64,000 nt of DNA from Chloroflexota bacterium (GCA_013203045.1 JABMQN010000275.1:4515-68514); one strand, 5' to 3'. Shown: positions 36,901 to 58,260, counted from the first letter of the stretch. The notes: a model not told the origin generated them from the letters alone. A program made the numbers and translations.

Positions 36901-38906
36901 TACTGGCACAAGATCTAGCTTCCAACAAAACAGGGAATCTTGACGAAGATCAAATGGAATCGGCAGATATTATACATAAAAGCGGGCAGGATCTACTTAC
37001 ACTTATTAATGAGATTCTCGACCTTTCGAAGATTGAAGCTGGTAAGATGCCTGTAAATATTTGCCCTGTCCTCCTCCCTGATATAGCCAACAGTATCAAC
37101 ACCAACTTCAAGCATGTCATGGCAGGGAGAGGCGTAGAGCTAATAATAAATGTGGATGAGTCCATTCCCGAAACAATCGAGACAGATCAGCAAAGGTTGT
37201 TACAGATAATCAAGAACCTTATGTCCAATGCTATCAAGTTTACCGATACTGGCAGCATTACAGTCGATTTCTTCAAGCCTGCCGCTAACGCTAATCTCTC
37301 CAGAAGTGGGCTCGATCAACAGCAAACTATCGGTATTAGTGTTACCGATACCGGTGTTGGTATTCCAAAGGAGAAGCAAAAACCAATTTTCGAGGCTTTC
37401 CAACAGGCTGACGGGAGTACTTCACGACAATATGGCGGAACCGGATTGGGGCTGTCAATTTCCAGAGAGCTTGCCAGACTTCTCGGTGGAGAGATTCAAC
37501 TGGAAAGTGAAGAGAATAAAGGTTCTAAATTCACTATTTTTATCCCAGCAGAAATGATCGAACCGGACGAAGCTGATGAACCTTCCGATACGGTATCAGC
37601 TAAATCCACAGAACAACCGCAAACCACAGAATCAAATATGGCATCTGTAAAGATTGCTGAACCGGTAACCGAGAATGACGAGAGAAAATCCGCTCCCTCA
37701 ATTAAAGACGACCGTGATGTAATCGAGGGAAACAACCGGGTGATTCTGGTCATTGAAGATGACCTCAACTGGGCCAAAACTCTTTACAAGTTCTGTCATC
37801 AAAGGAATTTCAAATGCTTGCATGCAGGAGACGGAGAGACCGGATTACAGCTTGCTGAGCAATATCAACCCACTGCCATAGTTCTGGATATCAGGTTGCC
37901 CGGGCTGGATGGATGGGGTGTCCTTGAGTTGCTGAAAGATAATTCCAACACGCGCCATATTCCGGTGCACATGATGTCAGCATCTGAAGAATCCATTGAT
38001 GCTTATAAGAAAGGCGTTATCGGATTCCTGACAAAACCGATAGACAGCAACCAGCTTGATGACGCATTCACGAAGATCGAAGACGTCATTTCACGAGACG
38101 TGAAAGAGCTTTTGATAATTGAAAAAGATGCAAAACTCCGCAAGAACATCGCGAAGCTCATTGGTGACGATGATGTAAATACAACGGCTGTTGGTTCTGG
38201 TAAACAAGCGTTAGATGAATTACGATCAAAGACTTATGACTGTATGATTCTTGATCTGGCCCTCTCCGATATATCCGGTTTCGATGTACTCAAACAAATG
38301 AACGATTCCGAGGACATTTCGGCGCCACCAGTTGTGGTATACGCAGGAAGAGAACTCACACCGGATGAAGAACTTAAGTTACAGATGTACGCCGGGTCCA
38401 TAATGGTCAAAGGTGTCAAATCTGAAGATCGATTGCTGGACGAGACAGCCCTCTTCCTCCATAGGGTCATAGATGATTTACCCGCACCCAAGAAAGAAAT
38501 AATTACTCGCCTTCACGATAAAGACAGCATCTTCGAAGGCAAGAAAATCCTGCTGGTTGACGACGACATGCGCAACGTTTTTGCCCTCTCAAAGGTGATG
38601 GAAGGTGTAGGAATGGAGATAATAAAGGCTTCCAATGGGAAGAAGGCTCTGGAGGCTCTGGAAAAAGATGCGGATGTTGATTTGGTATTGATGGACATAA
38701 TGATGCCCGTCATGGATGGCTATGAAGCTATGCATCATATCAGGGACCAGGAGCGCTTTGCCGACTTGCCCATATTAGCATTAACTGCAAAAGCGATGGT
38801 CGATGACCGCGAGAAATGCATTGCTGCGGGTGCTAATGACTATATGCCAAAACCGGTAGATGTCGAAAGATTACTCTCACTTATTCGGGTGTGGTTATAC
38901 AAATAA
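33927..38906 (+). CDS. multisensor hybrid histidine kinase: TM-periplasmic sensor-TM-HAMP-PAS-HAMP-GAF-coiled coil-HisKA-HATPase-REC-REC-REC
   Basis: 1659 aa. Two TM segments flank a ~340-aa extracytoplasmic domain. It carries an H-box SHELRTPLN, an HATPase G-box [10 protein letters not shown], and three receiver domains. Its ATG overlaps the cheB stop. Confidence 0.85.
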   Translation: MKKPTIPQNPQSKFLSLRGKLTLLILLIGILPIIIIGFISYSSYGQSVTSAKKGISTSEQKLSDGFVGLNLQNIAHDTAKEVDEFFESTMADVIASAKYSLIVDATQESLGVAEEYGFSNVPKEDIQRVMVSAHNKAPNASADNYLALLDMDHPATEHILQMKSSSRYFIDLFFTDVLGYNASVTGPTERFVQSDEKWWKDAWNEGISIGDIEDIDEDESTEIWALSIAVRIDNEAGDPVGVMRAVLDIAAIQDIATTNAGKVESGQVLIVTENGSPLAETASEHDPKRIMNKGTWQSDNEVRKKVDSVFNASTRNGSELIEDSMIGFARSASADYYSEIEGFNGFSWAVIVEQPQEVAFALLASLNELENDLSNSQRATGMTILVVAIGMVLIGILIAFSVSRSITRPMNRLRSATEQFRMGNEDIVIDIDSKDEVGDLAKAFNRMLSERKLANEALRTERDYSTGIVERTPAVIVGIAPDGSVTFINPAGEEITGYNSEELIDKNWWQTFHPGDEYKQVKELFQVLHEGGDTHNYEMTLTAKDGEKHTCEWNIIERFDESGEIVEIIAFGNNITERKQSEEDLRKANEEINLILENVTSVSQAIVDGDFSKEIELTTEKPELGSALQEMIRILKGVVDQANTIAAGNYEMDIIPRSEMDELGIALQNMTQALREMKQVNYKQLWFAERQARLNDVMRGEQDIPDLARNLTGYLAKTLNAQMATLYVLNPEDNKLLLVGSYAFTHRKGNPGMFELGEGLVGQAALEKELIVFSNIPEDYIKIGSSLGDTIPRNIMVIPFLYDGNTTGVIELASVEEFSDDTIAFLNSVMESIAIAVNSAEARVKMQELLHYSQEQAEQLQFQEQELRTANEELTLKTEKLEASEKGLKSQREELQATNEELEEKTQKLQTSQTQLTAQQEQLQAANEELEEKTFSLEKQREEVFKKNEQLEIASQELELRAEDLRLASKYKSEFLANMSHELRTPLNSLLVLAQDLASNKTGNLDEDQMESADIIHKSGQDLLTLINEILDLSKIEAGKMPVNICPVLLPDIANSINTNFKHVMAGRGVELIINVDESIPETIETDQQRLLQIIKNLMSNAIKFTDTGSITVDFFKPAANANLSRSGLDQQQTIGISVTDTGVGIPKEKQKPIFEAFQQADGSTSRQYGGTGLGLSISRELARLLGGEIQLESEENKGSKFTIFIPAEMIEPDEADEPSDTVSAKSTEQPQTTESNMASVKIAEPVTENDERKSAPSIKDDRDVIEGNNRVILVIEDDLNWAKTLYKFCHQRNFKCLHAGDGETGLQLAEQYQPTAIVLDIRLPGLDGWGVLELLKDNSNTRHIPVHMMSASEESIDAYKKGVIGFLTKPIDSNQLDDAFTKIEDVISRDVKELLIIEKDAKLRKNIAKLIGDDDVNTTAVGSGKQALDELRSKTYDCMILDLALSDISGFDVLKQMNDSEDISAPPVVVYAGRELTPDEELKLQMYAGSIMVKGVKSEDRLLDETALFLHRVIDDLPAPKKEIITRLHDKDSIFEGKKILLVDDDMRNVFALSKVMEGVGMEIIKASNGKKALEALEKDADVDLVLMDIMMPVMDGYEAMHHIRDQERFADLPILALTAKAMVDDREKCIAAGANDYMPKPVDVERLLSLIRVWLYK

Positions 38907-38918
38907 AGGAGTGATGCC

Positions 38919-40172
38919 ATGAAGGTTAAACCAAAAATCCTCATTGTTGATGACAAGGGCGAAAACCTGGTCGCGCTTGAGAAAACCCTGGCCGATCTGA
39001 ATGTGGATTTCGTACGGGCCACGTCTGGCAACGATGCACTTGCAGTAACCCTCGAGCAGGAATTTGCCCTTGCCCTGGTTGATGTGCAAATGCCTGGCAT
39101 GGATGGTTTTGAAACAGTAGAGCTAATGCGCCAGGACAAAAAAACCAGGCATATACCTATCATCTTTATATCTGCTATTTATACTGAGGAATATCATAAG
39201 ATCAAAGGGATAGAAACCGGGGCAATCGATTTTATTACCAAACCTATTAATCCCAAGATTGTACTAGGTAAAGTTCGCATATTCCTTGAACTCCATGAAT
39301 ACAAAAGGTCCTTAGAGGAACAAAACAAGATCATCACCGCTTCCCACAAAGAACTTCAGATTGCCTTGGATGAACTGGGACTAATGCATGAAGAGTTGGT
39401 GAAAAGCCAGGAACAGCTCGTTCAATCCCAGAAATTGGCAGCCATCGGTCAGCTTGTCTCCGGTATTGCACACGAAATAAACAATCCATTGATGGCGATT
39501 TCCGGTAATGCACAACTGCTTTTAGAGGACGCTGAGGATGAGGATACACTTGAAAGCCTGGAAGTGATTCGTTGTGAAACCCAGCGTGCTACTGATATAG
39601 TGCAAAACCTGCTGGCTTTTGCACGATCACACAAATCTGATAGGGATCTCGTTTCCATTAATGAGGTTGTAGAGAACGCCGTCAAGTTATGTTCGAACAA
39701 ATCGAAAATCGACAACATTCAGATAGTATACGATTTCACCAGCGACATGCCAAATATAAATATTGATTCACTACAAATACAGCAAGTCTTTCTGAATTTG
39801 ATTAACAATGCGATTCAGGCAATGACAAAAACCAAAGATAGTGGCAAGCTCATAATCCGCACACAACAACCCTCAGAAGAAACGGTTCAAATATCTTTTG
39901 AGGATGATGGGCCTGGGATTCCCGCCGAAAACATTGATAGGGTATTTGAACCTTTCTTTACAACCAAGGACATCGGTGAGGGAACCGGGTTAGGGCTTAG
40001 TATTTGTTATGGTATCATCCAAAGTCACAATGGAAAAATCTATGCTGAAAGTACAGAATCCAACGGAGCAACCTTTAATATTGAACTTCCCATTATCGAT
40101 GATACTTCAAATAACCAGTCAGATATAGCAGTCTTGGAACCGGCAGGAGCAACTCAAGATACACAAGGATAG
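38919..40172 (+). CDS. receiver-domain histidine kinase (REC-HisKA-HATPase)
   Basis: N-terminal REC ([20 protein letters not shown]), H-box AHEINNPL, and HATPase GTGLGLS. Confidence 0.8.
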
Positions 40173-40187
40173 ATAGAGGAGTAAGAA

Positions 40188-41798
40188 ATGGATGCCAAAC
40201 CCAAGATGCTAATTGTTGATGATAGAGTCGAAAACCTGGTCGCTTTGGAAAAGACTTTGGGTGACCTCGATGTTGATTTCGTGCGCGCCCTTTCGGGCAA
40301 CGAAGCGTTAGCCCACACCTTGGAGCACGACTTCGCCATTGTGCTTTGTGACGTTCAAATGCCGGAAATGGATGGCTTTGAAACCGTCGAATTTATGCGT
40401 CAGGATAAGAAGACAAAACACCTGCCTGTAATTTTTGTTTCTGCAATATACACAGAAGATTTTCACATGGTAAAAGGGATAGAGACGGGTGCTGTCGACT
40501 TTATCACCAAACCTATCATTCCTGAAATTCTTCGTGGTAAAGTACAGGTATTTCTTGATCTTCACGCTAATAGGTTGTCACTTGAGGAAGAGATCAAACT
40601 CCGAACTGAAGCAGAACAGACGATTCAAGAGCAATATGACGATATCCAAATACACACACACGAACTGGAGGCAGCTAACCAGGAACTGCGTGAAACCCAG
40701 ACAAAACTTCTGGAACTCAATCAGGAAGTCCAGGAAAGCGAAGAGAGATACCGTGACCTGTTTGAAAACGCCAATGACCTGATTCAGAGCGTTGATGCAG
40801 AGGGTAACTTCGTATATGTGAATTCCGCCTGGCTCGAAGTTCTGGGATACGAAATGAAAGAGGTAGAGAATCTGAATTTCACTGATGTCGTGCCGGAAGA
40901 AGAATGGGCTCATTGCCAGGAACAATTCCAACAAATTCTGCAAGGCGAACGCTTGACGAATATGCAGACTATTTTCTTGACCAAGGATGGAAGACATATC
41001 TACGTTGAAGGTAATGCTGGGGCGAGATTCAAGAATGGGGAATTCGTAGCTAACAGAGGAATATTCAGAGATATCACTGAGCGTAAGATCGCAGAAGAGA
41101 AACAGCTTGAACTCGACCGTATGAAACAGGAGTTCATCTCCAATGTTTCCCATGAATTACGTACGCCCCTGCACTCCCTCAAAGGGTTTGTCAAACTATT
41201 GCTTGGCGGTAAAGTGACAGATTCGGAAACACAAAGCGAGTTCCTTAGCATTATCGAGAAAGAAAGCGACCGTCTTAGCGGTTTAATAGATGACTTGCTT
41301 GATATATCACGCCTCGAATCTGGGCGTTTTAAAGTTTACAAAGAACTGGTATCATTGGAGAATATAATTCGCGACGCTATCCAAAGGGTAGGAAGTCTGG
41401 CAAACGAACGGGGAATCACCATCACTGACGAAATCCAACCAGAATTGCCAGAGATAGAAGTAGACCAAAAACGCATAAGACAGGTTGTGACCAACCTGCT
41501 AAGCAATGCCATCAAGTATAATAATGAAAATGGTAGTATTACTGTACGGAGTGAGGTCACCGATAATGAGTTGCTCGTACAGGTTGCTGATGGTGGAATT
41601 GGGATAGCTGATGAGGATATCCCGAAGCTGTTCGAAAGGTTTTATCGGGTGGAAGCTTCTGATAGAATCGAGGGAACAGGTCTGGGGCTCCATATCAGCC
41701 AGCAAATCGTCGAAGCCCATTCCGGCAAAATATGGATAGAGAGCGAGTTGGGAGAAGGCAGTACTTTTAGTTTTGCTTTACCTTTGAATGAAAACTGA
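40188..41798 (+). CDS. receiver-domain PAS histidine kinase (REC-coiled coil-PAS-HisKA-HATPase), paralog of 38919
   Basis: The REC domain is ~70% identical to that of 38919. H-box SHELRTPLHSL. HATPase GTGLGLHIS. Confidence 0.8.
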   Translation: MDAKPKMLIVDDRVENLVALEKTLGDLDVDFVRALSGNEALAHTLEHDFAIVLCDVQMPEMDGFETVEFMRQDKKTKHLPVIFVSAIYTEDFHMVKGIETGAVDFITKPIIPEILRGKVQVFLDLHANRLSLEEEIKLRTEAEQTIQEQYDDIQIHTHELEAANQELRETQTKLLELNQEVQESEERYRDLFENANDLIQSVDAEGNFVYVNSAWLEVLGYEMKEVENLNFTDVVPEEEWAHCQEQFQQILQGERLTNMQTIFLTKDGRHIYVEGNAGARFKNGEFVANRGIFRDITERKIAEEKQLELDRMKQEFISNVSHELRTPLHSLKGFVKLLLGGKVTDSETQSEFLSIIEKESDRLSGLIDDLLDISRLESGRFKVYKELVSLENIIRDAIQRVGSLANERGITITDEIQPELPEIEVDQKRIRQVVTNLLSNAIKYNNENGSITVRSEVTDNELLVQVADGGIGIADEDIPKLFERFYRVEASDRIEGTGLGLHISQQIVEAHSGKIWIESELGEGSTFSFALPLNEN

Positions 41799-41822
41799 AT
41801 AAAATATCCTGGGGGGAGTTAT

Positions 41823-42206
41823 ATGAACGGTAAAATTCTAATTGTTGAAGACGATGCAAGTGCACTGAGATTGATAGAGTTTGCTTTGCAGCAAGAACGC
41901 TATGAAGTTATCGTTGCAACCAATGGATTGACCGGGCTCAAGAAAGCTCAAACCGAAAACCCGGACCTCGTCATTCTTGATCTAATGCTTCCAGGTTTGG
42001 ATGGTTTCGAGATCTGTAGTCGATTGAGAAAGGATCCTGAAACTGAGAAAGTACCAATCCTGATACTGTCTGCCAAGACTCACGAATCAGATGTAGCGAC
42101 AGCACGCGCAGTAGGAGCAGATGCCTATCTCACCAAGTCAGGAGACCCCTCAGAGATAGTAGCCCAGGTACAGACTCTGATATCACAAAAACCCCTCATA
42201 ATATAG
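41823..42206 (+). CDS. single-domain response regulator (CheY-like)
   Basis: 127-aa REC domain only (ILIVEDD..LDLMLPGLDG..K). Confidence 0.8.
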   Translation: MNGKILIVEDDASALRLIEFALQQERYEVIVATNGLTGLKKAQTENPDLVILDLMLPGLDGFEICSRLRKDPETEKVPILILSAKTHESDVATARAVGADAYLTKSGDPSEIVAQVQTLISQKPLII

Positions 42207-45807: not shown

Positions 45808-46206
45808 TTATGTACTCTCGTCAGATGCATCGTTGGCTGAATGTTCTTCCTGATTCAGCAATGCTTCGAGACCAGCGAATGGTTTATAGGTGGAAACAGG
45901 CTTATTCTCTCCGCCTGGTTGGGGTCCGTACGATTCCGCATCCAAATATCGCAAGTGCTCATTCTCGTGGCAATAGAGGCATAATAATTCCCAGTTGCTG
46001 CCGTCACGGGGATTATTTTCATGGTCATGATCTATGTGATGGACTGTGAGTTCACGGAGCCTCTCACCTGTGAATTCGCGCCCGCACCGCGCACAGATCC
46101 GAGGGTACATCTTGAGCGCTCGCTCCCGATACGTTTTCTCTCTGCGCCGGACCTCGGCAAGAGCTTGGTCCAGGTTATCGGTTTCTCTGCGCTTCTTCGG
46201 TGACAT
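45808..46206 (-). CDS. yajD: YajD-like HNH nuclease family protein
   Basis: LKMYPRICARCGREFTGERLRELTVHHIDHDHENNPRDGSNWELLCLYCHENEH is near-colinear with E. coli YajD. Confidence 0.8.
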   Translation of the reverse strand: MSPKKRRETDNLDQALAEVRRREKTYRERALKMYPRICARCGREFTGERLRELTVHHIDHDHENNPRDGSNWELLCLYCHENEHLRYLDAESYGPQPGGENKPVSTYKPFAGLEALLNQEEHSANDASDEST

Positions 46207-46222
46207 CGGTGTACATCCAGCT

Positions 46223-46999
46223 TTACTTTCGTATTTTATTCATAATGTTAGTGAATCTTGTGTTACTTATGGGATGCTCTGCAATAATCTTTCCATCGTA
46301 CACAATACAGAAAACGCCAAACGCACAGGGACTGTTTTGGGCTTCCTTGTGATTCTTGAGACTGATTACATTGGGCTGTATTCCAAATTCGTTTTGAGCA
46401 GTTTTACTTATTTCATTGACGTTCTTTACGGTGTAAGGACATTGATCGGCTCGAATTATCGTCAGGCCTTTACTGTATTTGCTGAGACTCTTTTCCCAAT
46501 TTGATTTGAATTTGGGTGTAGGAGAACTTTCCTTGAACTTTTTTACCAGCAACTCAAAATCAGATGGCGCTGAATCGACAACTTCAAAACCGTGTTTAAT
46601 AAAGATGCCTTTATCTGCCATGAAAGAACTTTTACGTGTCACTACAGCGACTCCGTATGTCTGTTCTTTTTTAGCATCTTCCAGGCATTCATGGAGTAAC
46701 AGCGAACCGTAACCTTTGTTTTTGTAAACCCGTTTAAAACCGGAAAAAATGCAGTGGATGAACGTATATCCAGTTGCTTCCACCGGTCGCCAGCAGTATT
46801 TCCCAGGAATATACTCAATCATGCCCTGAGTTCCATCCGCTTCAGAATACAGGGTTTTGATTTTCAAGCCTTCAGAGAATCTGTTTCTTAGCCATTCAAC
46901 TTTTTCTGGAAATCCGGCGCGCTTGATGTTTTTATATCCACAAACACCGTATTCCAGGATATTATCCGCATTCATGTCAATTATCTTTATTTCAGGCAT
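46223..46999 (-). CDS. GNAT-family acetyltransferase with C-terminal YoaP-like domain
   Basis: GNAT core (RVYKNKGYGSLLL) and a C-terminal ~60 aa with a CPYT motif. Confidence 0.55.
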   Translation of the reverse strand: MPEIKIIDMNADNILEYGVCGYKNIKRAGFPEKVEWLRNRFSEGLKIKTLYSEADGTQGMIEYIPGKYCWRPVEATGYTFIHCIFSGFKRVYKNKGYGSLLLHECLEDAKKEQTYGVAVVTRKSSFMADKGIFIKHGFEVVDSAPSDFELLVKKFKESSPTPKFKSNWEKSLSKYSKGLTIIRADQCPYTVKNVNEISKTAQNEFGIQPNVISLKNHKEAQNSPCAFGVFCIVYDGKIIAEHPISNTRFTNIMNKIRK

Positions 47000-47042
47000 T
47001 ACTGCTTCCCACTATGTATTCATGGCCGCTTGTTTTAAGATG

Positions 47043-47585
47043 CTAACTGTTTTGATCTTGTTTGGCGGCACCCTTTTTTATTCGACTTAGTTTTGCAGGC
47101 GTGACACGTTCGCCGGATTCGTAATACGCTTTCATACTAAGTGCCACATCCCTGATCTTACCTTTGATTATTCTGTTGAGCAAAATACAATCCAGCATTT
47201 GTCCAAAGAGCCCCCAACGTACCGTATAGATCAGCGAAGTGTTCAATCGAGTATCAATACCATCATCGGAAATCGAATAACGAAACCAGGCCTGTTTGAA
47301 CGGAAAGGGTGGTCCAGCATTGTTGCGGTGAAGGCGAAGCAGAAATCCATATCCTTCATTCCATTCCTCGATTGTTTCGTCAATTGCTTTTGTTTCTGTT
47401 TGGAACACCTTGCGACTCGCATCGATCCCGTACTTGCGTTTAGTTGTGATTTCAGTTTTGATAACGCCGGGCACGTAGTTGTGTGCGATCGAAAAGTCTT
47501 GCAGTAGCTCCCAGGCTTTATCTCGTGATATTCCTATGGTGATTTCTGCAGAAGCCTCACGATTTCGTGTAATGCTGGCCTTCAT
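47043..47585 (-). CDS. SRPBCC (START/Bet v1/polyketide-cyclase-like) family protein
   Basis: Ligand-binding cone-fold pattern. Start chosen at MKASITRN. Confidence 0.45.
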   Translation of the reverse strand: MKASITRNREASAEITIGISRDKAWELLQDFSIAHNYVPGVIKTEITTKRKYGIDASRKVFQTETKAIDETIEEWNEGYGFLLRLHRNNAGPPFPFKQAWFRYSISDDGIDTRLNTSLIYTVRWGLFGQMLDCILLNRIIKGKIRDVALSMKAYYESGERVTPAKLSRIKKGAAKQDQNS

Positions 47586-47873
47586 AATATATTTCCTCAA
47601 GCATGTTAGCATTTGCCATACAACTACTTGGCGGAATGATACTACACTGCGCACAATTTAGCAACAGGGTGGGAGGAGTTCAAAATGGCGAGCAGCTTCT
47701 ACTAGTCAGGTTTCCATTATTGGAGAAGCTATGTATAATGTGCACATTAGTTTATGACTGAATAAGCAGTGGCAATTCTATTCTTTGGACTTTGGAAAAC
47801 TTAATTTATTACATGTACAACATTGTTTTGTGTTGTGATCGAATTGAAATTGGTGTAGGAAAGGTAAATCCAT

Positions 47874-49358
47874 ATGAGATACAAGATTCAAATTTTGTGT
47901 ATAGGTCTACTTTTGATCTGGACTGTTACGCAAGCGGCTTGTGATAACGATAGGGCAAGCCCGAGTAGTGACACAAGTGATCCAACACATGACAGTGAAA
48001 CTGCTGAACCGTCTCTTCCCCTCAAAGTACACCCGGACAATCCCCGATATTTTTCGGATTCATCTGGCGATATTGTATATTTGACCGGTTCGCATACATG
48101 GGCCAATCTGGTTGACATCGCACCCGATGATCCGCCTACTGTATTTGACTTCATTGAATATCTCGATTTTCTCAAAGATCGAAACCACAATTTCATACGT
48201 CTTTGGACTTGGGAGTTAACTAAGTTTAGCTATAATGACAAAATACGATATTCGGCTCCACATCCGTGGCTTCGTACTGGGCCAGGCAATGCTCTTGATG
48301 AACTCCCTAAATTCGATCTATCACAATTTGACACTGAATACTTCTCCAGGTTGCGCGAGAGGGTTGAAGCTGCCGATGAGAGAGGTATCTACGTTTCGAT
48401 AATGTTGTTTGAGGGGCATGCGGTGAAACATTCTGATTATCCTTGGAAATGGCAAGGCCACCCGTTCAATACTGAAAATAATATGAATGGTATCGACGGA
48501 AATCCGGATAATAGCTACACAGGGGATGAAATCTATACCATTTCGGATTCGGTATACGATGTCACCAGATTGCAGGAATCGTATGTCCGAAAAATCATCG
48601 ATACGGTCAATGATTTTGATAACGTTCTTTTTGAAATCGGTAATGAGGTGGTACCTGCGTCAACCCAATGGCAATACCATATGATCGAATATGTCAAGAA
48701 TTACGAGGCAAGTAAGCCGTTCCAGCATCCTGTGGGCATGACCTTCCAAATCCAGGGTGGCAATAATGCTACGCTATTTGATAGTCCTGCTGATTGGATA
48801 TCGCCCAACAGCATTGCAGATATGGTTGACTACTTTGGAAATCCACCGGCAGCAGATGGAAGCAAGGTCATCATCATTGATACCGATCATTTATGTGGTA
48901 TCGGGTGTGGACCAAATGCATATAGATGGGTTTGGAAGAGTTTTTTACGAGGCTACAATCCTATCTATATGGATCCATGGGGTGATATGGATCATTTCGA
49001 ACTGCATGATGCTGGTGATGAAGCCATCCGGGATAACATGGGGTATACCCTTACTTATGCCAATAAAATGAATCTTGTTGATATGATACCCCGTCCTGAA
49101 TTGTCAACAACAGGATATTGCTTGGCAAACCCGGGATCCGAATATCTTTTCTATCAGCCTGTGTCCGGAGCGTTTACCGTTACTCTTGATTCAGGAGATT
49201 ATTATTACGAATGGTTCAACCCAGATACTGGCAAGATAGTTGAAAGCGGAGACTATGCCGCACCTACAGGGGACAACTCGTTTCTTCCACCGTTTGGTGG
49301 TCATGCAGTTCTTTACCTGAAATCTTTGGAGGGTTTCAAGCCTGTTGTTGCGATGTGA
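47874..49358 (+). CDS. lipoprotein, putative TIM-barrel glycoside hydrolase (GH5-like / DUF4038-like)
   Basis: Lipobox TVTQAAC and a FEIGNE acid/base-like motif. 494 aa. Confidence 0.45.
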   Translation: MRYKIQILCIGLLLIWTVTQAACDNDRASPSSDTSDPTHDSETAEPSLPLKVHPDNPRYFSDSSGDIVYLTGSHTWANLVDIAPDDPPTVFDFIEYLDFLKDRNHNFIRLWTWELTKFSYNDKIRYSAPHPWLRTGPGNALDELPKFDLSQFDTEYFSRLRERVEAADERGIYVSIMLFEGHAVKHSDYPWKWQGHPFNTENNMNGIDGNPDNSYTGDEIYTISDSVYDVTRLQESYVRKIIDTVNDFDNVLFEIGNEVVPASTQWQYHMIEYVKNYEASKPFQHPVGMTFQIQGGNNATLFDSPADWISPNSIADMVDYFGNPPAADGSKVIIIDTDHLCGIGCGPNAYRWVWKSFLRGYNPIYMDPWGDMDHFELHDAGDEAIRDNMGYTLTYANKMNLVDMIPRPELSTTGYCLANPGSEYLFYQPVSGAFTVTLDSGDYYYEWFNPDTGKIVESGDYAAPTGDNSFLPPFGGHAVLYLKSLEGFKPVVAM

Positions 49359-50368: not shown

Positions 50369-50740
50369 ATGAGGAAAATCATACTAGGTGGACAAGGTTT
50401 TACTCTCGTGGAGCTGCTCACGGTGATAGGTATCATGGCTATACTCGCTGCAGTGGTATTGCCTGTCGTTGTTGGATTTGTTGGCAGTGGTGAGACTGAA
50501 GCTGAAGATACAGAATATGATGCCATGAAGTTTGCCGTGAGAGCTATGCTAGTGGATGCCGGTGCAACGAACCTATCAGGGTTTGATAATGATGTTGATG
50601 AATTGGCAGAGGTAAAAAACATAACAGCTACTAGTGCGGATGGTATTGAATACTCGTTAGACAAGTATCTCACTTTTGGAAGTTTTCCGCTGTCTCAATC
50701 ATACGATATTAGTGAAGATGGCGCAGTGACTGTGTATTAA
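50369..50740 (+). CDS. type IV pilin-like protein (prepilin-type N-terminal cleavage/methylation domain)
   Basis: QG/FTLVELLTVIGIMAILAAVV is a class III signal peptide. 123 aa. Confidence 0.8.
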   Translation: MRKIILGGQGFTLVELLTVIGIMAILAAVVLPVVVGFVGSGETEAEDTEYDAMKFAVRAMLVDAGATNLSGFDNDVDELAEVKNITATSADGIEYSLDKYLTFGSFPLSQSYDISEDGAVTVY

Positions 50741-50864
50741 TCGGAGCGTGTTCAATTAGAAAAACAACGAATCTGAACCAATCAAGGAAAAGACAGAAGG
50801 TGCATGTTGAAGTGTGCCATGCCCTTATTGTCTAAACTTGGAGGTTCAGAAAGGTAGGTAGTAT

Positions 50865-51599
50865 ATGCTAGCAAATCCGGTTCTCAGAACAAGTTTAAGT
50901 TTGCCCAGGATGATCTTGTTGCCTTTTGAGCCGATTACGTCATTCATAATTAGCATTGGGCTCCTGGTTCCAATTCTGCACCCTTTGTACAAGTTGATAA
51001 TGAACATAATATGGTTTCCATTTTATTGCTATATGAAGTCTACAGGCTGCATATATCGAGAGATATGGATGTTCCGTCCAATAATGGCCATTATCACAAT
51101 ACCTGTGTTGATCGTGCTGGATGTTTTTATACTCATAATGCCGGGCACCAGCAAGCGTGACAAGTTTGAAAAAGCCTCGATGATAGATTCATGGCCATGC
51201 AAATCTGAGAGTAAAATATGGGATTCATCTAATGGACAATGTATACCTATCAACAGGAAAGCTCATTCTTATTCTGTTGATGTGTCTTCTGGTGGAAGGT
51301 CTAGTGTGAATCACTGTACTTTGTGTGGTGATATGGTGAGAGATGACTGGACTCGATGTCCCAGTTGTCATGAGCCATTGGATGCAGTTTTACCGTTGCC
51401 CTCCACTCGGTATAAGAAAGTCGTACTGAACAAAAACGAAGTCTCTCAACGGTGGGTGGATGAGCATTATAACAAAAATATGCCGTGGATAAGAGAATGC
51501 ACTTTATGTGGCGACATTGTGAGGGCAGACTGGACAAAGTGTCCCCGGTGTGGGGAGGTATTGATTCAAGCAGGTCGCCCATCTGTAATGGCTTACTAA
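50865..51599 (+). CDS. membrane protein with tandem C-terminal zinc ribbons
   Basis: Three or four TM helices, followed by CTLCGDMVRDDWTRCPSCHEPL and CTLCGDIVRADWTKCPRCGEVL. Confidence 0.5.
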   Translation: MLANPVLRTSLSLPRMILLPFEPITSFIISIGLLVPILHPLYKLIMNIIWFPFYCYMKSTGCIYREIWMFRPIMAIITIPVLIVLDVFILIMPGTSKRDKFEKASMIDSWPCKSESKIWDSSNGQCIPINRKAHSYSVDVSSGGRSSVNHCTLCGDMVRDDWTRCPSCHEPLDAVLPLPSTRYKKVVLNKNEVSQRWVDEHYNKNMPWIRECTLCGDIVRADWTKCPRCGEVLIQAGRPSVMAY

Positions 51600-51638
51600 A
51601 ACGAGTAAATGATAGAAATAACTAATATGAGGAATGAA

Positions 51639-52040
51639 ATGAAAAAAAGGCCGAGAAATCAGGAAGGGTTTGCTTTTATCGAGGCATTATTGGCTTTGGT
51701 GATTCTGGGTACATTCGGTACTGTTCTTTTAGGAGGGCTGGCTGTTGCCGCCAAGGCTACTCCACTTGCCGATGAAACCAGCACTGCACAGAATCTAGCC
51801 GAAACTCAAATGGAGTATGTGCTGAACCAGGATTATGATTATATCAACGATACGCCACAATACCTTGTTATTTCTGACACCGACGTGCCTGAAGGATACA
51901 GTATTTCCAGTGTTGCTGAGCGTTTGGATGCCGATGATGACGATGACGATGACGATGATGGCATTCAGAAAATTGAGGTTTCAGTCCAACACTGGGATGA
52001 AACAGTCACCATTCTAGAAGGTTACAGGATAAGACAATGA
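51639..52040 (+). CDS. pseudopilin / minor pilin with prepilin-type N-terminus and poly-Asp tract
   Basis: EG/FAFIEALLALVILG, then a DADDDDDDDDDG run encoded by (GAT/GAC)n at 51931..51960. The track ORF starts at 51609. Confidence 0.7.
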   Translation: MKKRPRNQEGFAFIEALLALVILGTFGTVLLGGLAVAAKATPLADETSTAQNLAETQMEYVLNQDYDYINDTPQYLVISDTDVPEGYSISSVAERLDADDDDDDDDDGIQKIEVSVQHWDETVTILEGYRIRQ

Positions 52041-52594
52041 AATTGAGTAGGTTAATTTCGATGATAAAAGCCCAGGGCGGAGTAACTCTCGTTGAGCTAA
52101 TGGTAGGCATTGCTATAACCGGTGCAATTGGCGGCGTTATAGTAATGACGATTATACAATTGGATACCGTGGGAAGCTCCAATACAAATCGAATTGTCAG
52201 TGTTAATTATGTGCAAAATGCGGGGTACTGGATTCAAGTTGATACCAAGGTGGCTCAGACTATAGAACTGGATGCAGGGGATTCAGGTTTGCCCCTGATA
52301 TTAAACTGGGTTGATTGGGACAATACAGAGCATCAGGTCAGCTATTCTTTGGATGGTGATAAACTGCAACGTATTCAATCGATTAATAGCGGATCACCGA
52401 ATGTGCTTGTTGTTGCACAGTCCGTTGATGCTGAACCTGATTTGACCAATTGTGAATTTGTTGATGGGATGCTCAATTTCACGTTGACTACCACGGAGGG
52501 CTCTGGTACGCGGGGAAACACTGAGACCCGCGTGTTCAGTTTTAAACCGAGGGCGGAACTTGTGGTGTTGAAAGGTAATGGGGAGGAAGTCTAG
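52037..52594 (+). CDS. pseudopilin / minor pilin (prepilin-type N-terminus)
   Basis: GG/VTLVELMVGIAITGAIGGVIV. Confidence 0.7.
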   Translation: MKLSRLISMIKAQGGVTLVELMVGIAITGAIGGVIVMTIIQLDTVGSSNTNRIVSVNYVQNAGYWIQVDTKVAQTIELDAGDSGLPLILNWVDWDNTEHQVSYSLDGDKLQRIQSINSGSPNVLVVAQSVDAEPDLTNCEFVDGMLNFTLTTTEGSGTRGNTETRVFSFKPRAELVVLKGNGEEV

Positions 52595-55137
52595 TGAAAG
52601 CGGCAATATTGAACAGGGTAAAAAGAGAGTTCGGTGGGGCAATGATTTGGGTCCTGCTACTCATAAGTGTAGGAAGTCTTACGCTGCCTCCTCTTCTGTC
52701 TTTAGCAACTAGCAGTCTTGGCGCTTCCCAAATGTATGAGAAGAAGACTAATCAGGCTTACGCGGCAGATGCTGGTGTGGGGGATGGTTTGTGGGAAATA
52801 AAATATGGTGATTTGGGAACTGTGTTCCCAACCTATGACCCGTACGATTATGACTTGATTTGGACCTATAATCTAACTGATCAGAAACATGGAAATTCAA
52901 TTAATGGTTACGATACAGAAGTCTCAATAGGAAATATCTGGATTCCAAAAGATATAGCAACTCCGGGTACAGCCCAGGCACGGAGCATTATTGAGGATGG
53001 AAAACTGATAGTAACGGGATGTACCTCAGGGGATTCAACGTACCAAATTAAAATCACCTATAATCCTGAGGAAGGTGATTTGATTGTAGAATCACTCGGA
53101 GTGTGGTTACCTGCCGGTTTCACGTATGACGATGAAGTTCACAACAATAGCATGAAAGATGAGTGTGACGGAGATGACCCCCCAGTATACTGTGATGACT
53201 TGAGCCTTGCGATAGGACCTCATAAAGGTGGAACTTCCATAGTCTGGGATTTCAGTGGCACATGTGTTGCTGTTACTGATCTCCCCAATGTAGACCCGTT
53301 GGAGTTCCCGATAGAAGCGGAAATAACCTTTGAATATGATTCAGAGCAGGAAGCGATCAATCCTGCAGCGGTTGCCTGGATTGAGACAAGTGGAGTTGAT
53401 GGCATCGAGTTATCATGGGACGCTGATACCAAGATTTATGAGATCACCGCGATAGCCGGTGATGCTAGAGTTGAAGCCCATGCCGCCAAAAGTGAGGCGC
53501 GTGAACTTGGGGGGCCCATAGGCGGAGACTACTTCATCATTGGAAACTCGCTGCTTGATTACACCGATGACGAGCGTTACCGAAACAGACTTCACCAGGA
53601 AACCAGCGCCACTGTCGCCGAGGATGACATCCCATCCAGCGCCACTATAGATCGCGCTTATCTTTACTGGACAGGCTGGATGGACTGGCAACCTTATGCG
53701 GATTCCTATGAACCACCTTATCTATTCTTTGATGATGGTGACAACATGAGCGCCTGGACTTGCTCTGGCAACTTTTGGAGACCTGATAATTCGACAGGGA
53801 GCATTGAAGGACATCATGTGGGCGGTGGCACAGCCAAGTATCTCCATATGACGAAACCAGTGGATTTACATGAATACACAGATGGAGAAATTACTGTATC
53901 CTGGGATCAAAGTGTAGGACCTGGGGACCAGTTGGAAAGTACTGATAAGCTCTACTTTATCTATGATGGTGACGGTGATTTTGATAACGATAACGGTTAT
54001 GTACAGGAACTTGCTTTCAGTAATGACATTTCGCCTTCTTCTCGCGAGGTCACCATCCCTAAAGATCACCGGACTGCCGATTTCAAAATAGGTTTCTATT
54101 ATGATGGCTTTGATACTTCAGGAGAATACTGCTACATTGATAACATCAAGATCATCCACACAGCATCCGGTGAAGAGGAAACGGGTGGTGCCGGTGAGAG
54201 TGCAATGAAATACCCGGATGATCCAACCTACGAGAACCTCAGAATTCTGGTTGAGGAAACTGCCAGGGTGAATACGGTTATATTTAGCGGTACTCAAGTA
54301 ACGGCCGATGAATGGCGTATAGCTGAATCGACTGACTTACCAGGCGAGACTATTTATGAGGATCGCTGGTCTTATGCATGCCGCTATGATGCTACCGACC
54401 TTATAAATAAGTGGATTGAAGATGACGAAGATTTTGTAGATATTGCCAGCAATGGCGCTGGTGAGTATACGCTTGGTCACGTGATGACACAAAATGAGGG
54501 AAACCCAGAGTATTCCATTGACCTCTGGCCAGCGGGCACTACCGGGTATCCCCTCGCGTCCCCGGCCGAATGGCCCGACCCACCACAAAGGCATGACTTT
54601 TGTTATGGTGGTTGGTCACTGATCCTTATCTATTCCAGTGCAGAAACGGAAGGCCATCAGTTATACCTCTTTGATGACACATTGGCTGAAATCTGGCACT
54701 ATAATCCTGATGTCGATGGTGACGGTGAAGCCGGCATTACAGTTGATGGGTTCTTGGTACCGGATGGTATCACCACTGATGACGAAGTAGCAAGGGTCAC
54801 CGTATTCGCAGGTGAAGGAGATCGAGGAATTACTGGAGATAAATTCTTCTTCAACAAAGGAATTGCCTTATCAAGTGATACCAGTTCTTTTAACAATATA
54901 TGGGACTCTCAATTACCTGGAGGTTTGGTACCGGGTATAGATATTGACACTTTCACCATCAATCACCCAACTTTGGAAGCAGGAGCCACCGAAGCTCATA
55001 TTGACTATTTGGGTATTAATGAGAATCCTGACCAATACTATTCGGCCAGTGACGAATTTACCCCAGTCTATGTTATTCTCTCTTTCCGTAGCGAAGTCAC
55101 CACTGGTGGAACCCTCGATTACTTACTGGAATTCTAA
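52594..55137 (+). CDS. large pilus-associated protein (PilX-like N-terminal hydrophobic segment; possible tip adhesin)
   Basis: 847 aa. N-terminus EFGGAMIWVLLLISVGSLTL is PilX-like (no Glu5). The body is rich in D/G/T/Y. Its start overlaps the upstream stop. Confidence 0.55.
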   Translation: MKAAILNRVKREFGGAMIWVLLLISVGSLTLPPLLSLATSSLGASQMYEKKTNQAYAADAGVGDGLWEIKYGDLGTVFPTYDPYDYDLIWTYNLTDQKHGNSINGYDTEVSIGNIWIPKDIATPGTAQARSIIEDGKLIVTGCTSGDSTYQIKITYNPEEGDLIVESLGVWLPAGFTYDDEVHNNSMKDECDGDDPPVYCDDLSLAIGPHKGGTSIVWDFSGTCVAVTDLPNVDPLEFPIEAEITFEYDSEQEAINPAAVAWIETSGVDGIELSWDADTKIYEITAIAGDARVEAHAAKSEARELGGPIGGDYFIIGNSLLDYTDDERYRNRLHQETSATVAEDDIPSSATIDRAYLYWTGWMDWQPYADSYEPPYLFFDDGDNMSAWTCSGNFWRPDNSTGSIEGHHVGGGTAKYLHMTKPVDLHEYTDGEITVSWDQSVGPGDQLESTDKLYFIYDGDGDFDNDNGYVQELAFSNDISPSSREVTIPKDHRTADFKIGFYYDGFDTSGEYCYIDNIKIIHTASGEEETGGAGESAMKYPDDPTYENLRILVEETARVNTVIFSGTQVTADEWRIAESTDLPGETIYEDRWSYACRYDATDLINKWIEDDEDFVDIASNGAGEYTLGHVMTQNEGNPEYSIDLWPAGTTGYPLASPAEWPDPPQRHDFCYGGWSLILIYSSAETEGHQLYLFDDTLAEIWHYNPDVDGDGEAGITVDGFLVPDGITTDDEVARVTVFAGEGDRGITGDKFFFNKGIALSSDTSSFNNIWDSQLPGGLVPGIDIDTFTINHPTLEAGATEAHIDYLGINENPDQYYSASDEFTPVYVILSFRSEVTTGGTLDYLLEF

Positions 55138-55431
55138 TAGCCTAAAAAGTGTTCGCCGGCACCCAAACGCCGGCGAACACATCATACTCCCTTTTTTCCG
55201 TTCAACTGAAAATATTCGACCTTTTTTGAGTTCGAATAGTCTTACGTATTTCCTCAAACACATCTGCATTCCCTCATGTCCCTCTGTTGCGTATTTCTTA
55301 AACTGTTTATCAATTCCTGGGAGCATGTTTGATTTATTATTCTCAGTTCTGGTACTATCTCTTTTATAATCGTCCTATAATAGATAGTGAGTGGTTATGG
55401 ATTTAAGATACGACAACTCTGTGGGGAGAGA

Positions 55432-56709
55432 ATGATGAGAAATTGGATTAAGATTGGAGCAATCTTGTTAGCGGGCACATTGTTGTCAGTAATGTTGCTT
55501 GCCGCATGCGGAAATAGCAATGGTGAGAATGGCAATGGAACTTCGCCCACTCAGCCTTCACCCACTGGGGAACAAGTATTGATTACGATAGGAAATCACA
55601 CTGATATGACAGGCGTGGCGTCAACCGCGATGATTGTTATAACCAAAGCACTAGAAGATATGGCAGCGTATTATACTGATGAGCAACTCATACCTGGAGT
55701 CAAATTCGAAGTAATTACTTTTGATGGTAGTTATAACCCCGATTATGACATACCCGGATATGAAGAATTGAAAAGGCAGGGAGCTGATCTATTTTTTGGT
55801 AACGTGGCTCCCACTCCTGTAAATCTAAAACATCTTCTTGAACGTGACAAAATGGTATTTTTCACTGCAGCTCCTGCCTTGGAAGCATTTGATCCGCCAG
55901 GATGGGTCTTTGCTTGTGGGCAGACGCTGATTCAGTATGAAGCTGCCACTCTTCTTAAATGGATAGCGGAGAATGACCCCGATTTTCCTAAGAAAACGCA
56001 GAACAGGCCAGCCAAAGTTGGTGGGGCTTTCTGGAAAGAAAACTATGGTGAAGATTGTTTGGAAGGGGCAGAGGAATATGCAAATGCCCATCCGGACCAG
56101 TATGAATGGGTTGGTGGATTTCTCAGTGACTGGAGCTTTCTATGGGACGAGGAAGTTGAAGCATTGAAAGATTGCGATTATGTATTTCCGGCAATTCCCC
56201 CCAATCAGTTTGTGAAACAGTATCGGGCAGGTGGAGGCAAAGCAACGTTCATAGGTAGTGACGCACATATCGCATTCCTAACAGATATTGAGAGGGATAA
56301 TCTTTGGAACGAATTCGATGGAATGTGGCTTGTCAAGCCTTCCCAATGGTGGAATGATGAGGGTGACATAATCGACTTGACTTATGAAATATTGCATAAA
56401 TATAACACTCCTGACGAAGTGGACGAAATCATGGAGACCGGGATTGGGTACATGGCAACCCAGCAAATATACGTCATGTTTGAACTAATAAAGGCAGCAT
56501 CTGCATCTGTAGGCCCTGATAATCTAAACTCGCAGGCTATTTTTGATGAGGCAAAGTCATTTTCTATTATCGTCGATGATTGTCACCATAGCTATAACGA
56601 GGACAAACGGACTTCCAGCGATGAATTAGCGATCTATGAGATTCGAGCTTCACAGAAGGATATCTTTCGGGCTGATCCCAGGTGGCTTCCCGTGATTGGT
56701 GATGACTAG
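55432..56709 (+). CDS. PBP1-type solute-binding lipoprotein, orphan
   Basis: MMRNWIKIGAILLAGTLLSVMLLAACG lipobox, a linker, and a body paralogous to 27029..28327. The track ORF starts at 55387. Confidence 0.65.
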   Translation: MMRNWIKIGAILLAGTLLSVMLLAACGNSNGENGNGTSPTQPSPTGEQVLITIGNHTDMTGVASTAMIVITKALEDMAAYYTDEQLIPGVKFEVITFDGSYNPDYDIPGYEELKRQGADLFFGNVAPTPVNLKHLLERDKMVFFTAAPALEAFDPPGWVFACGQTLIQYEAATLLKWIAENDPDFPKKTQNRPAKVGGAFWKENYGEDCLEGAEEYANAHPDQYEWVGGFLSDWSFLWDEEVEALKDCDYVFPAIPPNQFVKQYRAGGGKATFIGSDAHIAFLTDIERDNLWNEFDGMWLVKPSQWWNDEGDIIDLTYEILHKYNTPDEVDEIMETGIGYMATQQIYVMFELIKAASASVGPDNLNSQAIFDEAKSFSIIVDDCHHSYNEDKRTSSDELAIYEIRASQKDIFRADPRWLPVIGDD

Positions 56710-57547: not shown

Positions 57548-58260
57548 ATGAGAAAGGTGACGATTGTATTACTGTCTCTCTTGATATTGGTTGGTATACC
57601 TGTAATGGCAGCTTGTGGGGGCGGGGGTGACTCAACCCCAACACTGGGCCAAACTCCCGATATCACCACTACATCCTCTCCTACACCTTCGCCGGTGTTG
57701 ACATCGACTCCTTCTCCTACGATAACGCCGACACCTTCACCAACATCGGATTCAGTTCGTCAAGCAATATCGAAATGCGGGTTATACGGCGAAGTTCGTT
57801 GGTACTGATTGGCACATCGCTTCCCTCGACTCGGTAGATGATGCAGGTCTTTGGCCTGAAATCGATGGAATGCTACTGCTGCAATCTATTCAATGGTGGG
57901 AATGATGAGGGTGAGGTATTGGACATGACCAAGTCGATTTTGAATGAATATCGACCTGATGAAGCTGAAGCGATAATTCGCTCAGGTGGGGGATATCTGA
58001 AGATGCAGCAACTGTACATCATGTTTGAACTCATTTCAGATACGGTCGAAGAAATAGGTCCGAAAAATTTCAGTTCCCAGGCAGTCTATGACACTGCAAA
58101 GACGTTTTCGATAGACGTTGATGGTTGTCCCCATAGTTATACCGATACTAAACGGGTTTCCAACGATGCACTCGCTTCATTTGAGGTACGTGCTGATGAG
58201 AAGGACATATTTAGGAGAGAGTCAGGACCCAAGTGGTATCCGGTCCTCAATGAACCATAA
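57548..58260 (+). pseudogene. decayed PBP1-type solute-binding lipoprotein paralog (internal deletion + frameshift)
   Basis: 57548.. has a signal peptide/lipobox MAACGGGG and a TP linker. 57790..57905 reads AKFVGTDWHIASLDSVDDAGLWPEIDGMLLLQSIQWWE in a second frame, matching ATFIGSDAHIAFL...PSQWWN of 55432. 57838..58260 is the C-terminal 140 aa in a third frame. ~250 codons of the middle are missing. Confidence 0.6.

What the first reader, a model, noticed from the sequence alone, without database searches (positions are those of the whole stretch)
50369..55137. Orphan type IV pilin/pseudopilin operon with a poly-Asp pseudopilin, a double-zinc-ribbon membrane protein and an 847-aa putative tip protein
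Four consecutive ORFs carry class III signal peptides (G/FTLVE, G/FAFIE, G/VTLVE, and a PilX-like variant). No PilB/C/D/M-Q genes lie nearby. One pseudopilin has a D9-10 tract encoded by an in-frame GAT/GAC repeat, which is a possible cation- or mineral-binding feature and also a slippage-prone trinucleotide repeat. An intervening membrane protein has duplicated CTLCGD..W..CP.C zinc ribbons. This may be a novel pseudopilus or adhesion fibre.
Basis: partly seen in the sequence, partly recalled or inferred. Interest (0 to 1): 0.5.

Follow-up and report, generated by a model that had tools for sequence, protein, structure and literature searches.

The report
Detached type IV pilus tip module
This is a stand-alone copy of the three-gene set that most likely builds the tip of type IV pili in Dehalococcoidia bacteria, including a giant, fast-diverging, probably adhesive pilin from an unnamed protein family; it appears to work like known pilus-tip complexes, not as a new kind of fibre.

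Summary
Five co-oriented ORFs at 50369-55137 encode three pilins with G|F/V-x-x-x-E signals, a 2-3-TM protein with two zinc ribbons, and an 847-aa protein with a pilin-like N-terminus lacking Glu5. The window has no PilB/C/M/T.

The "novel orphan fibre" reading is only partly right. The last three genes form a module found in 323 species genomes, almost all Dehalococcoidia. In about half of the fetched loci it sits inside a complete pilus cluster: PilB-PilC-[module]-p209-PilM-PilT. Elsewhere it is detached, and some genomes carry both kinds.

The Asp9 tract is a substitution variant of a conserved, fixed-length Asp-rich loop. It is not a slippage expansion.

The zinc-ribbon gene is confined to a narrow lineage but is under purifying selection.

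Verdict: a new, uncharacterised member of a known kind, the minor-pilin tip complex with a modular pilin.

The parts
50369..50740 (+). 123-aa type IV pilin of the short, major-pilin/GspG-like type (leader MRKIILGGQG, mature FTLVELL...)
   Evidence: Pfam N_methyl and TIGR02532 both score above their cut-offs, and the N-terminal 58 aa match GspG. It is homologous (phmmer E 1e-8 to 1e-15) to the short pilins that lie next to core pilus clusters, and to those beside the detached module of L063 and the short-flank module of L023. The orthologue in the sister lineage L086-88 has Thr at -1.
50865..51599 (+). 244-aa membrane protein with two C-x2-C...C-x2-C zinc ribbons; an accessory gene confined to a narrow lineage
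   Evidence: Pfam Zn_Ribbon_1 matches twice, with a sub-threshold DZR hit, and there are TM segments. Only 7 homologues exist (41-81% identical to the window protein, apart from the window's own shorter NCBI gene call), and they are syntenic wherever context is known. dN/dS is 0.21 against L086. A 9-bp gap separates it from the next gene.
51609..52040 (+). Small minor pilin of the GspI/PilV/ComGE ('I') class; the likely start is the ATG at 51639 (133 aa)
51927..51962 (+). Asp-rich loop D-A-D9-G between strands 1 and 2 of the small pilin (nine Asp codons at 51933-51959)
   Evidence: Searches give the DNA. The loop aligns without gaps to the conserved motif RLDxxGDGxDxDDGIQ, in which D-D-G and Q are invariant. 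Three assemblies are identical here.
52037..52594 (+). 185-aa minor pilin, provisionally GspJ/PilW ('J') class; its start overlaps the upstream stop codon by 4 bp
   Evidence: Invariant Glu5. Members match HpsC (31/34), PRK10557 (30/34) and GspJ (29/34), all sub-threshold and driven by the N-terminus. It always lies between the I-like gene and the large gene. dN/dS is 0.26.
52594..55137 (+). 847-aa modular, K-like minor pilin; its GTG start shares one base with the upstream stop codon
   Evidence: AF2 pLDDT 81.9 with an N-terminal helix 2-71 followed by all-beta structure. Gly-1 is invariant and Glu+5 is never present. No Pfam, NCBIfam or PDB sequence hit. Family size: 323 species genomes, and 406 clusters at 50% identity with E<=1e-30.
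55149..55180 (.). Perfect 14-bp-stem GC-rich palindrome 12 nt after the stop codon; probable end of the transcription unit
   Evidence: The T-run lies on the minus strand, so a terminator function for the plus-strand operon is inferred, not shown.

Best explanation
Genes 51609-55137 encode a detached copy of the minor-pilin module of the Dehalococcoidia type IV pilus. It comprises an I-class pilin (143 aa, Asp-rich loop), a probable J-class pilin (185 aa), and a giant K-like pilin (847 aa).

Proposed mechanism, by analogy with GspIJK/PilVWX and S. sanguinis PilABC:
1. A prepilin peptidase encoded elsewhere processes the proteins.
2. The three pilins assemble through their N-terminal helices into a staggered complex in the membrane.
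3. This complex primes polymerisation of a short major pilin on a PilB/PilC platform that is also encoded elsewhere.
4. The complex ends up at the pilus tip. The Glu5-less 847-aa subunit caps it and displays its beta-sandwich, CBM-like modules as the binding surface.

The upstream 123-aa pilin is a candidate cognate major-type or linker pilin. The zinc-ribbon membrane protein is a co-transcribed accessory gene of unknown role, confined to a narrow lineage. The Asp9 tract is a derived version of a conserved acidic loop on the I-subunit head and possibly binds divalent cations.

Shown: sequence motifs, predicted folds, synteny, purifying selection, and mosaic divergence of the large protein.
Inferred: peptidase processing, complex formation, tip location, adhesion, and cation binding.
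For: 1. Synteny. In Dehalogenimonas lykanthroporepellens the homologue Dehly_1225 lies in PilB-PilC-pilin139-pilin179-991aa-209aa-PilM-PilT. Among the fetched loci, 33 large-protein genes are core-linked in this way and 15 are detached with at least 8 kb of upstream and 3 kb of downstream sequence. The trio order is invariant.
2. Genomes with both types: W589 (L067 core, L030 detached) and W156 (L070 core, L080 detached), plus CAZTBG (L069 core, L028) and CAZPSP (L013 core, L068), whose second copies have shorter flanks. The window's own MAG (HQ553 locus tags) carries a second trio, HQ553_13500, on contig L085.
5. Adhesin-like modules: CBM, reelin, MAM and gingipain-adhesin jelly roll.
6. Functional constraint versus the syntenic orthologue L086: dN/dS is 0.17 (small), 0.26 (mid) and 0.21 (Zn), with dS of 0.3-0.7, similar to the flanking housekeeping genes.
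7. Mosaic divergence of the large protein. Residues 1-320 are 64% identical. Residues 321-847 are 35-46% identical with indels and saturated dS, while the neighbouring genes are 78-85% identical. Family members range from about 760 to 1900 aa, with breakpoints at the jelly-roll region.
8. The published framework for tip complexes, Glu5-less capping subunits and modular pilins is in PMC9934059.
Against: - No PilB/C/D/M/T lies in the 64-kb window, and the rest of the MAG could not be examined, so machinery in this organism is assumed from relatives.
- The J-class call for the 185-aa pilin rests only on sub-threshold, N-terminus-driven HMM ranks and on gene order.
- No H-class subunit was identified in the module.
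- There is no experimental evidence for pili containing these proteins in any Dehalococcoidia; the literature searches found none.
- CBM-like folds are generic and do not identify a ligand.
Confidence: 0.72

Rival explanations
1. One reading: a self-contained, novel pseudopilus or adhesion fibre that does not use a conventional PilB/PilC/PilD machine.
For: No assembly genes lie in the 64-kb window. The locus has its own short pilin and an unusual zinc-ribbon membrane protein found only in this lineage.
Against: The same trio is an integral part of complete PilB-PilC-...-PilM-PilT clusters in many Dehalococcoidia. The window's large protein is closest to core-linked copies. The class III signal motifs imply dependence on a prepilin peptidase. 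No known type IV filament assembles without an ATPase and a platform protein (established knowledge). The zinc-ribbon protein has no ATPase, platform or peptidase domain.
Confidence: 0.04
2. The module serves a non-adhesive type IV filament: a Com-like DNA-uptake pilus, or a T2SS-like pseudopilus that pushes or presents proteins through the S-layer of a monoderm cell. The large subunit would bind DNA or cargo, not a surface.
Against: Core clusters include a PilT-type retraction ATPase and PilM_2, which are typical of retractile type IV pili and not of ComG or T2SS operons (established knowledge). No secretin is expected in these monoderm bacteria, and none turned up in the fetched loci, although no dedicated secretin search was run (own knowledge for the cell-envelope type). 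The distal domains resemble carbohydrate-binding and adhesion modules, not known DNA-binding pilins. All HMM matches are sub-threshold and driven by the N-terminus.
Confidence: 0.14
3. The locus is a decaying remnant of a pilus cluster split by rearrangement and no longer makes functional proteins.
For: It is detached from the core genes. The orthologue of the 123-aa pilin in the sister lineage has lost Gly-1. One detached copy elsewhere (L080) appears fragmented into three ORFs.
Against: All five ORFs are intact. Gene order is conserved in a lineage with dS of about 0.3-0.7. dN/dS is 0.17-0.26 for the zinc-ribbon, small and mid genes. The genes have coupled or overlapping start and stop codons. 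The invariant motifs (Gly-1, Glu5, DDG-Q) are retained.
Confidence: 0.08

Closest known systems
GspI-GspJ-GspK (T2SS) and PilV-PilW-PilX (T4aP) minor-pilin tip/priming complex
Streptococcus sanguinis PilA-PilB-PilC tip complex of a monoderm type IV pilus (PMC9934059, PMC8179133)
   Different: In S. sanguinis the Glu5-less subunit is the small PilA, and two modular pilins carry vWA and ConA-like modules. Here the Glu5-less subunit is itself the single giant modular pilin, and its modules are CBM/reelin-like. There is no detectable sequence homology.
Multiple minor-pilin/PilY1 gene sets in Myxococcus xanthus (PMC7541494, PMC8833165, PMC9109919)
   Same: One pilus machine is served by several paralogous tip/priming gene sets encoded at separate loci. 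The adhesin component is the most divergent part. At least one set is under two-component control, which compares with the PAS kinase and response regulator directly downstream of the second trio, L085.

Membership tests
Type IV pilins (class III signal peptide proteins) | Short charged leader ending in Gly/Ala, then about 20 hydrophobic residues with Glu at +5 | tested here: met
   Met for the 123-, 143- and 185-aa proteins. Glu5 is invariant in both minor-pilin families. The 847-aa protein has Gly-1 and the hydrophobic stretch but no Glu5, as in K-type subunits.
Type IV pilins (class III signal peptide proteins) | Lollipop fold: a long N-terminal alpha-helix packed on an antiparallel beta-sheet | tested here: met
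Type IV pilins (class III signal peptide proteins) | Cleavage and N-methylation by a PilD-family prepilin peptidase | not testable with these tools
   No PilD candidate lies in the window, and the rest of the genome is unavailable.
GspI / PilV / ComGE ('I') minor pilin class | Small head with a three-stranded sheet that superposes on GspI | tested here: met
GspI / PilV / ComGE ('I') minor pilin class | Score above the curated cut-off of TIGR01707, TIGR02523 or NF041013 | tested here: not met
   The window protein scores 21.0 bits on ComGE (cut-off 49) and 19.4 on PilV (cut-off 52.2). It is therefore not a sequence-level equivalog, only the same structural class.
GspJ / PilW ('J') minor pilin class | J-type head, and pairing with the I subunit | tested here: inconclusive
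   There are only sub-threshold hits at family level: GspJ 29/34, PRK10557 30/34, HpsC 31/34. The window protein itself gives none.
GspK / PilX ('K') capping minor pilin class | Absence of Glu5, and last position in the minor-pilin operon | tested here: met
   0 of 58 members have Glu at +5, and Gly-1 is present in 58 of 58. The gene is always third in the trio.
GspK / PilX ('K') capping minor pilin class | PilX_N or T2SSK domain match, or a GspK-like fold | tested here: not met
PilY1 / PilC tip adhesins | Sec signal peptide and a C-terminal beta-propeller with a Ca-binding site | tested here: not met
Complete type IV pilus system locus | PilB ATPase, PilC platform and PilM/N/O alignment proteins (plus or minus PilT) encoded with the pilins | tested here: not met
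   None is present in the window. They are present around the homologous module in 33 fetched loci.
Carbohydrate-binding module / reelin-MAM jelly-roll superfold | Beta-sandwich jelly roll of about 130 residues | tested here: met
DxDxDG-type calcium-binding loop (recalled from memory: Rigden & Galperin 2004) | An Asp-x-Asp-x-Asp-Gly loop that coordinates Ca2+ | tested here: inconclusive
   The closest homologues read D-A-D-D-D-G and D-A-D-G-D-G at the start of the loop. The window reads D-A-D9-G, so the pattern survives only at the end of the tract. Metal binding cannot be tested here.

The most novel reading that the evidence does not exclude
Dehalococcoidia cap their type IV pili with a single 760-1900-aa pilin that merges the K capping subunit with the adhesin role played by PilY1 in diderm bacteria. 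Genomes would keep several detached I-J-K cassettes, some beside sensor kinases, whose distal modules are exchanged by recombination. One pilus machine could then be re-tipped for different substrates. The acidic loop of the I subunit and the lineage-specific zinc-ribbon membrane protein would tune assembly of a particular cassette.
Probability: 0.3. Interest if true: 0.5.

Novelty: new member of a known kind. Interest (0 to 1): 0.3.

Why it matters
Dehalococcoidia include the organohalide-respiring bacteria used in bioremediation and abundant subsurface and marine lineages. How these S-layer-bound, wall-less cells attach to particles or partner cells is poorly known.

This work assigns a likely role to a large protein family that Pfam and NCBIfam do not cover, and that was named 'hypothetical protein' in nearly every case where a source gave a name. 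The family has relatives in 323 species genomes and comprises 406 clusters (50% identity) at E<=1e-30. It also identifies the fast-diverging distal region as the likely determinant of binding specificity.

This would extend the 'modular pilin at the tip' concept from streptococci to another phylum that lacks an outer membrane. It is an annotation and evolution result, not a new mechanism.

Tried and rejected
- tRNA and Rfam scans of the window found nothing.
- Pfam and NCBIfam on the 847-aa protein, and a profile search of PDB sequences, found nothing.
- The promoter and terminator scan was uninformative: 9 promoter-like sites against 13 expected, and 4 terminator-like sites against 4.1 expected. 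Only the palindrome after the operon stands out.
- The cluster at 32-42 kb, checked as possible pil genes, encodes sensor kinases, response regulators and neighbouring genes that I read as CheR/CheB-like from their sequences; no pil genes.
- The zinc-ribbon protein as a PilD substitute was rejected. It has no Peptidase_A24 hit and only 2-3 TM segments.
- The slippage hypothesis for the Asp tract was rejected. The loop length is the same in all homologues and the three assemblies are identical.
I repeated it with alignment A4, built from homologues found.
- One search was a malformed script of mine. It computed nothing and only cost one script call.
- Two literature searches for Dehalococcoidia pili and minor pilins found no characterisation of this family.
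- The NJ tree has no support values and is used only as a rough guide.
- The NG86 dS for the distal part of the large protein was not computable because it is saturated, and it may be inflated by alignment error.
Full report
**1. The observation**

- Three have canonical class III signal sequences: GQG|FTLVE, QEG|FAFIE and QGG|VTLVE.
- Pfam N_methyl scores 24.2, 20.1 and 20.8 bits against a cut-off of 21.2, so one passes and two narrowly miss.
- At family level the motif is solid. TIGR02532 is matched by 33 of 35 homologues of the small pilin and 32 of 34 homologues of the mid pilin. Profiles of both families hit the N-terminal helices of solved type IV pilins.
- The 847-aa ORF begins ...KREFG|GAMIWVLLL. 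In 58 aligned homologues the Gly is invariant and position +5 is never Glu.
- The Asp tract is nine consecutive Asp codons at 51933-51959, preceded by Asp-Ala.
- The 244-aa protein has N-terminal TM segments and two zinc ribbons.
- phmmer with PilB, PilC, PilM, PilT and the 209-aa protein from Dehalogenimonas finds nothing else in the window. No window ORF looks like a polytopic PilD.

**2. What the locus is**

The 847-aa protein has no Pfam, NCBIfam or PDB sequence match, but it has hundreds of homologues. Every one that carries a source name is from Chloroflexota/Dehalococcoidia apart from one MAG labelled Planctomycetes, and those names are 'hypothetical protein' with one exception. A scan of one genome per species found relatives in 323 genomes. 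An exhaustive profile search found 406 clusters (50% identity) at E<=1e-30 and 1616 at E<=1e-10.

In the closed genome of Dehalogenimonas lykanthroporepellens BL-DC-9, the homologue Dehly_1225 lies in this cluster: PilB (MshEN+T2SSE) - PilC (T2SSF) - pilin 139 - pilin 179 - Dehly_1225 (991 aa) - 209 aa - PilM_2 - PilT.

I called ORFs in the fetched loci and labelled them with phmmer.
- The trio of a small pilin (about 115-155 aa), a pilin of about 175 aa and a large protein is present, in that order, wherever the contig reaches far enough upstream.
- Among large-protein genes of at least 700 aa, 33 are embedded in the core cluster, 15 are detached with at least 8 kb of upstream and 3 kb of downstream sequence, and 30 lie on loci too short to judge.
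- Four genomes hold both a core-linked copy and a second copy with no core genes in the fetched locus: W589, W156, CAZTBG and CAZPSP. The flanks are long enough to call the second copy detached in W589 and W156 (L030, L080); L028 and L068 are shorter.
- The window's own MAG (locus tags HQ553_) has a second trio on another contig: HQ553_13500, on L085.

Detached minor-pilin modules are therefore a regular feature of this class. They are not a sign of a separate fibre.

**3. The subunits**

*Mid pilin.* It ranks HpsC, PRK10557 and GspJ, again sub-threshold. I could not model it, so the J assignment is provisional.

*Large protein.*
- The model has pLDDT 81.9, with a helix over residues 2-71 followed by all-beta domains.
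- Fifteen of 60 relatives give weak Reelin_subrepeat-B hits and 9 of 60 give weak PilX_N hits.
- A Glu5-less, last-in-operon, oversized subunit is what the literature describes for the capping K subunit. Bulky modules grafted on a pilin define 'modular pilins' (PMC9934059).
- GspK itself is not among the top hits, so I call the protein K-like, not a GspK/PilX family member.

**4. Evolution within the lineage**

A sister lineage (L086-L088) keeps the same locus: HNH, YoaP, Polyketide_cyc2 ... short pilin, zinc-ribbon, small, mid, large, Peripla_BP_6 ... thymidylate synthase.

| Gene | Amino-acid identity to L086 | dN/dS |
|---|---|---|
| Zinc-ribbon | 78% | 0.21 |
| Small pilin | 80% | 0.17 |
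| Mid pilin | 84% | 0.26 |

dS for these three is 0.3-0.7, like the flanking housekeeping genes at 0.5-0.7. These genes are under purifying selection, which argues against a dead remnant.

The large protein is mosaic:
- Residues 1-320 are 64% identical.
- Residues 321-680 are 35% identical.
- Residues 681-847 are 46% identical.
- The distal parts have indels and synonymous divergence too high to compute.

Across the family, lengths range from about 760 to 1900 aa, with alignment breakpoints around the jelly-roll region. This fits an exposed, exchangeable or diversifying binding module on a conserved pilin base. The dS estimate in the poorly aligned part is unreliable, so I cannot separate module replacement from rapid in-place divergence.

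By best BLAST hits and a rough NJ tree, the window's large protein groups with core-linked copies (L026, L005, L007, L008, L054). The MAG's second copy (L085) groups with copies that have no core genes in their loci.

**5. The Asp tract**

The tract lies in the loop between strands 1 and 2 of the I-type head. It aligns without gaps to a conserved motif, RLDxxGDGxDxDDGIQ, in which D-D-G and Q are invariant.

| Source | Identity to window | Loop |
|---|---|---|
| Window | - | DADDDDDDDDDG |
| P0129 | 89% | DADDDGSDNDDG |
| P0130 | 80% | DADDDGSDDDDG |
| P0133 | 74% | DPDSDGYDDDDG |
| P0135 | 63% | DADGDGIDDDDG |

All loops are the same length. The window and two independent metagenome contigs are identical across it.

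The tract therefore arose by Gly/Ser/Asn-to-Asp substitutions within a structurally fixed acidic loop, and I found no sign of length instability. Several relatives carry a D-x-D-x-D-G pattern, which I recall as a calcium-binding motif. Cation binding is a reasonable guess but is untested.

**6. The zinc-ribbon protein and the 123-aa pilin**

The zinc-ribbon protein has only seven homologues in 5.8 billion sequences. They are 41-81% identical to it (apart from the window's own shorter NCBI gene call), and are syntenic wherever context is known. It is absent from all 80 genome loci. It sits 9 bp upstream of the small pilin gene and is under purifying selection, so it is probably co-expressed. 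It is not part of the general system, and I cannot assign it a role. It is not a PilD substitute.

The 123-aa pilin resembles the short pilins that flank core clusters, which are presumably the major pilins. Similar short pilins sit next to the detached module in L063 and the short-flank module in L023. Its orthologue in L086-88 has Thr instead of Gly at -1, so its importance is uncertain.

**7. Mechanism, rivals and verdict**

*Most likely (0.72).* The trio is a minor-pilin priming and tip complex that uses a PilB/PilC/PilD machine encoded elsewhere. The 847-aa subunit caps the filament and presents adhesive modules. Processing, complex formation, tip location and adhesion are inferred by analogy with GspIJK/PilVWX, S. 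sanguinis PilABC and the multiple minor-pilin/PilY1 sets of M. xanthus (PMC9934059, PMC7541494, PMC8833165).

*Rivals.*
- A Com-like or secretion-type filament: 0.14.
- A decaying remnant: 0.08.
- A self-contained novel fibre: 0.04.

*Verdict.* The finding is real. It is best described as a new, uncharacterised member of a known kind of system. Its main value is the annotation of a large Dehalococcoidia protein family.

One search was a malformed script of mine and produced no result.

Noticed in passing
L027:16564-17025 (-) and L022:9931-10392 (-): In core pilus clusters of other Dehalococcoidia, a second short pilin carries a C-terminal tail of (Pro-Asp)n or (Pro-Glu)n followed by Pro-Trp/Gly-Pro-Trp repeats, for example ...PDPDPDPDPDPDPDPDPDPWPWPWKPWEPWDPWGPKWPW.
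   Followed up: no
L085:640-7089 (same MAG as the window; JGI 3300032737 contig Ga0335112_10768306): The MAG's second I-J-K trio (150, 188 and 781 aa; HQ553_13500) is followed by an 880-aa PAS histidine kinase whose start codon shares one base with the large gene's stop codon, and then by a response regulator. This suggests two-component control of that cassette.
   Followed up: partly
L086:9599-9898, L087:8852-9151, L088:2267-2566: The orthologue of the window's 123-aa pilin in the sister lineage reads MQT|FTPSES, with Thr instead of Gly at -1 and Pro/Ser in place of Leu/Val. Gene callers start it downstream at 99 aa, so its prepilin signal may be degenerating.
   Followed up: partly
L008, L040, L041, L072, L034, L071 (for example L040:6002-7898): Several loci, most of them core clusters, carry a second tandem I-J pair followed by a short (about 290-377 aa) K-like protein that matches only the N-terminal part of the large family.
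   Followed up: no
window 55149-55180: A perfect 14-bp-stem, GC-rich palindrome lies 12 nt after the stop of the 847-aa gene. Its T-run is on the minus strand.
   Followed up: no
window 32417-42206: A plus-strand cluster encodes two proteins I read as CheR-like and CheB-like from their sequences (no family scan was run), a 1659-aa hybrid sensor kinase, two further response-regulator/kinase fusions and a single-domain response regulator. I saw no link to the pilin locus.
   Followed up: no
window 27029-28327 (-), 55387-56709 (+), 57838-58260 (+): The window holds several paralogous lipoprotein-type solute-binding proteins. JGI's gene call for the 55387-56709 copy hits Peripla_BP_6. The 140-aa ORF at 57838-58260 resembles only the C-terminal end of the family and may be a fragment.
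   Followed up: no
window 45808-47654 (-): The HNH, YoaP-like and Polyketide_cyc2 genes upstream of the pilin locus are syntenic with the sister lineage L086-L088. The window has a DUF6298 gene (47874-49358) where the sister lineage has a different 301-aa gene.
   Followed up: no
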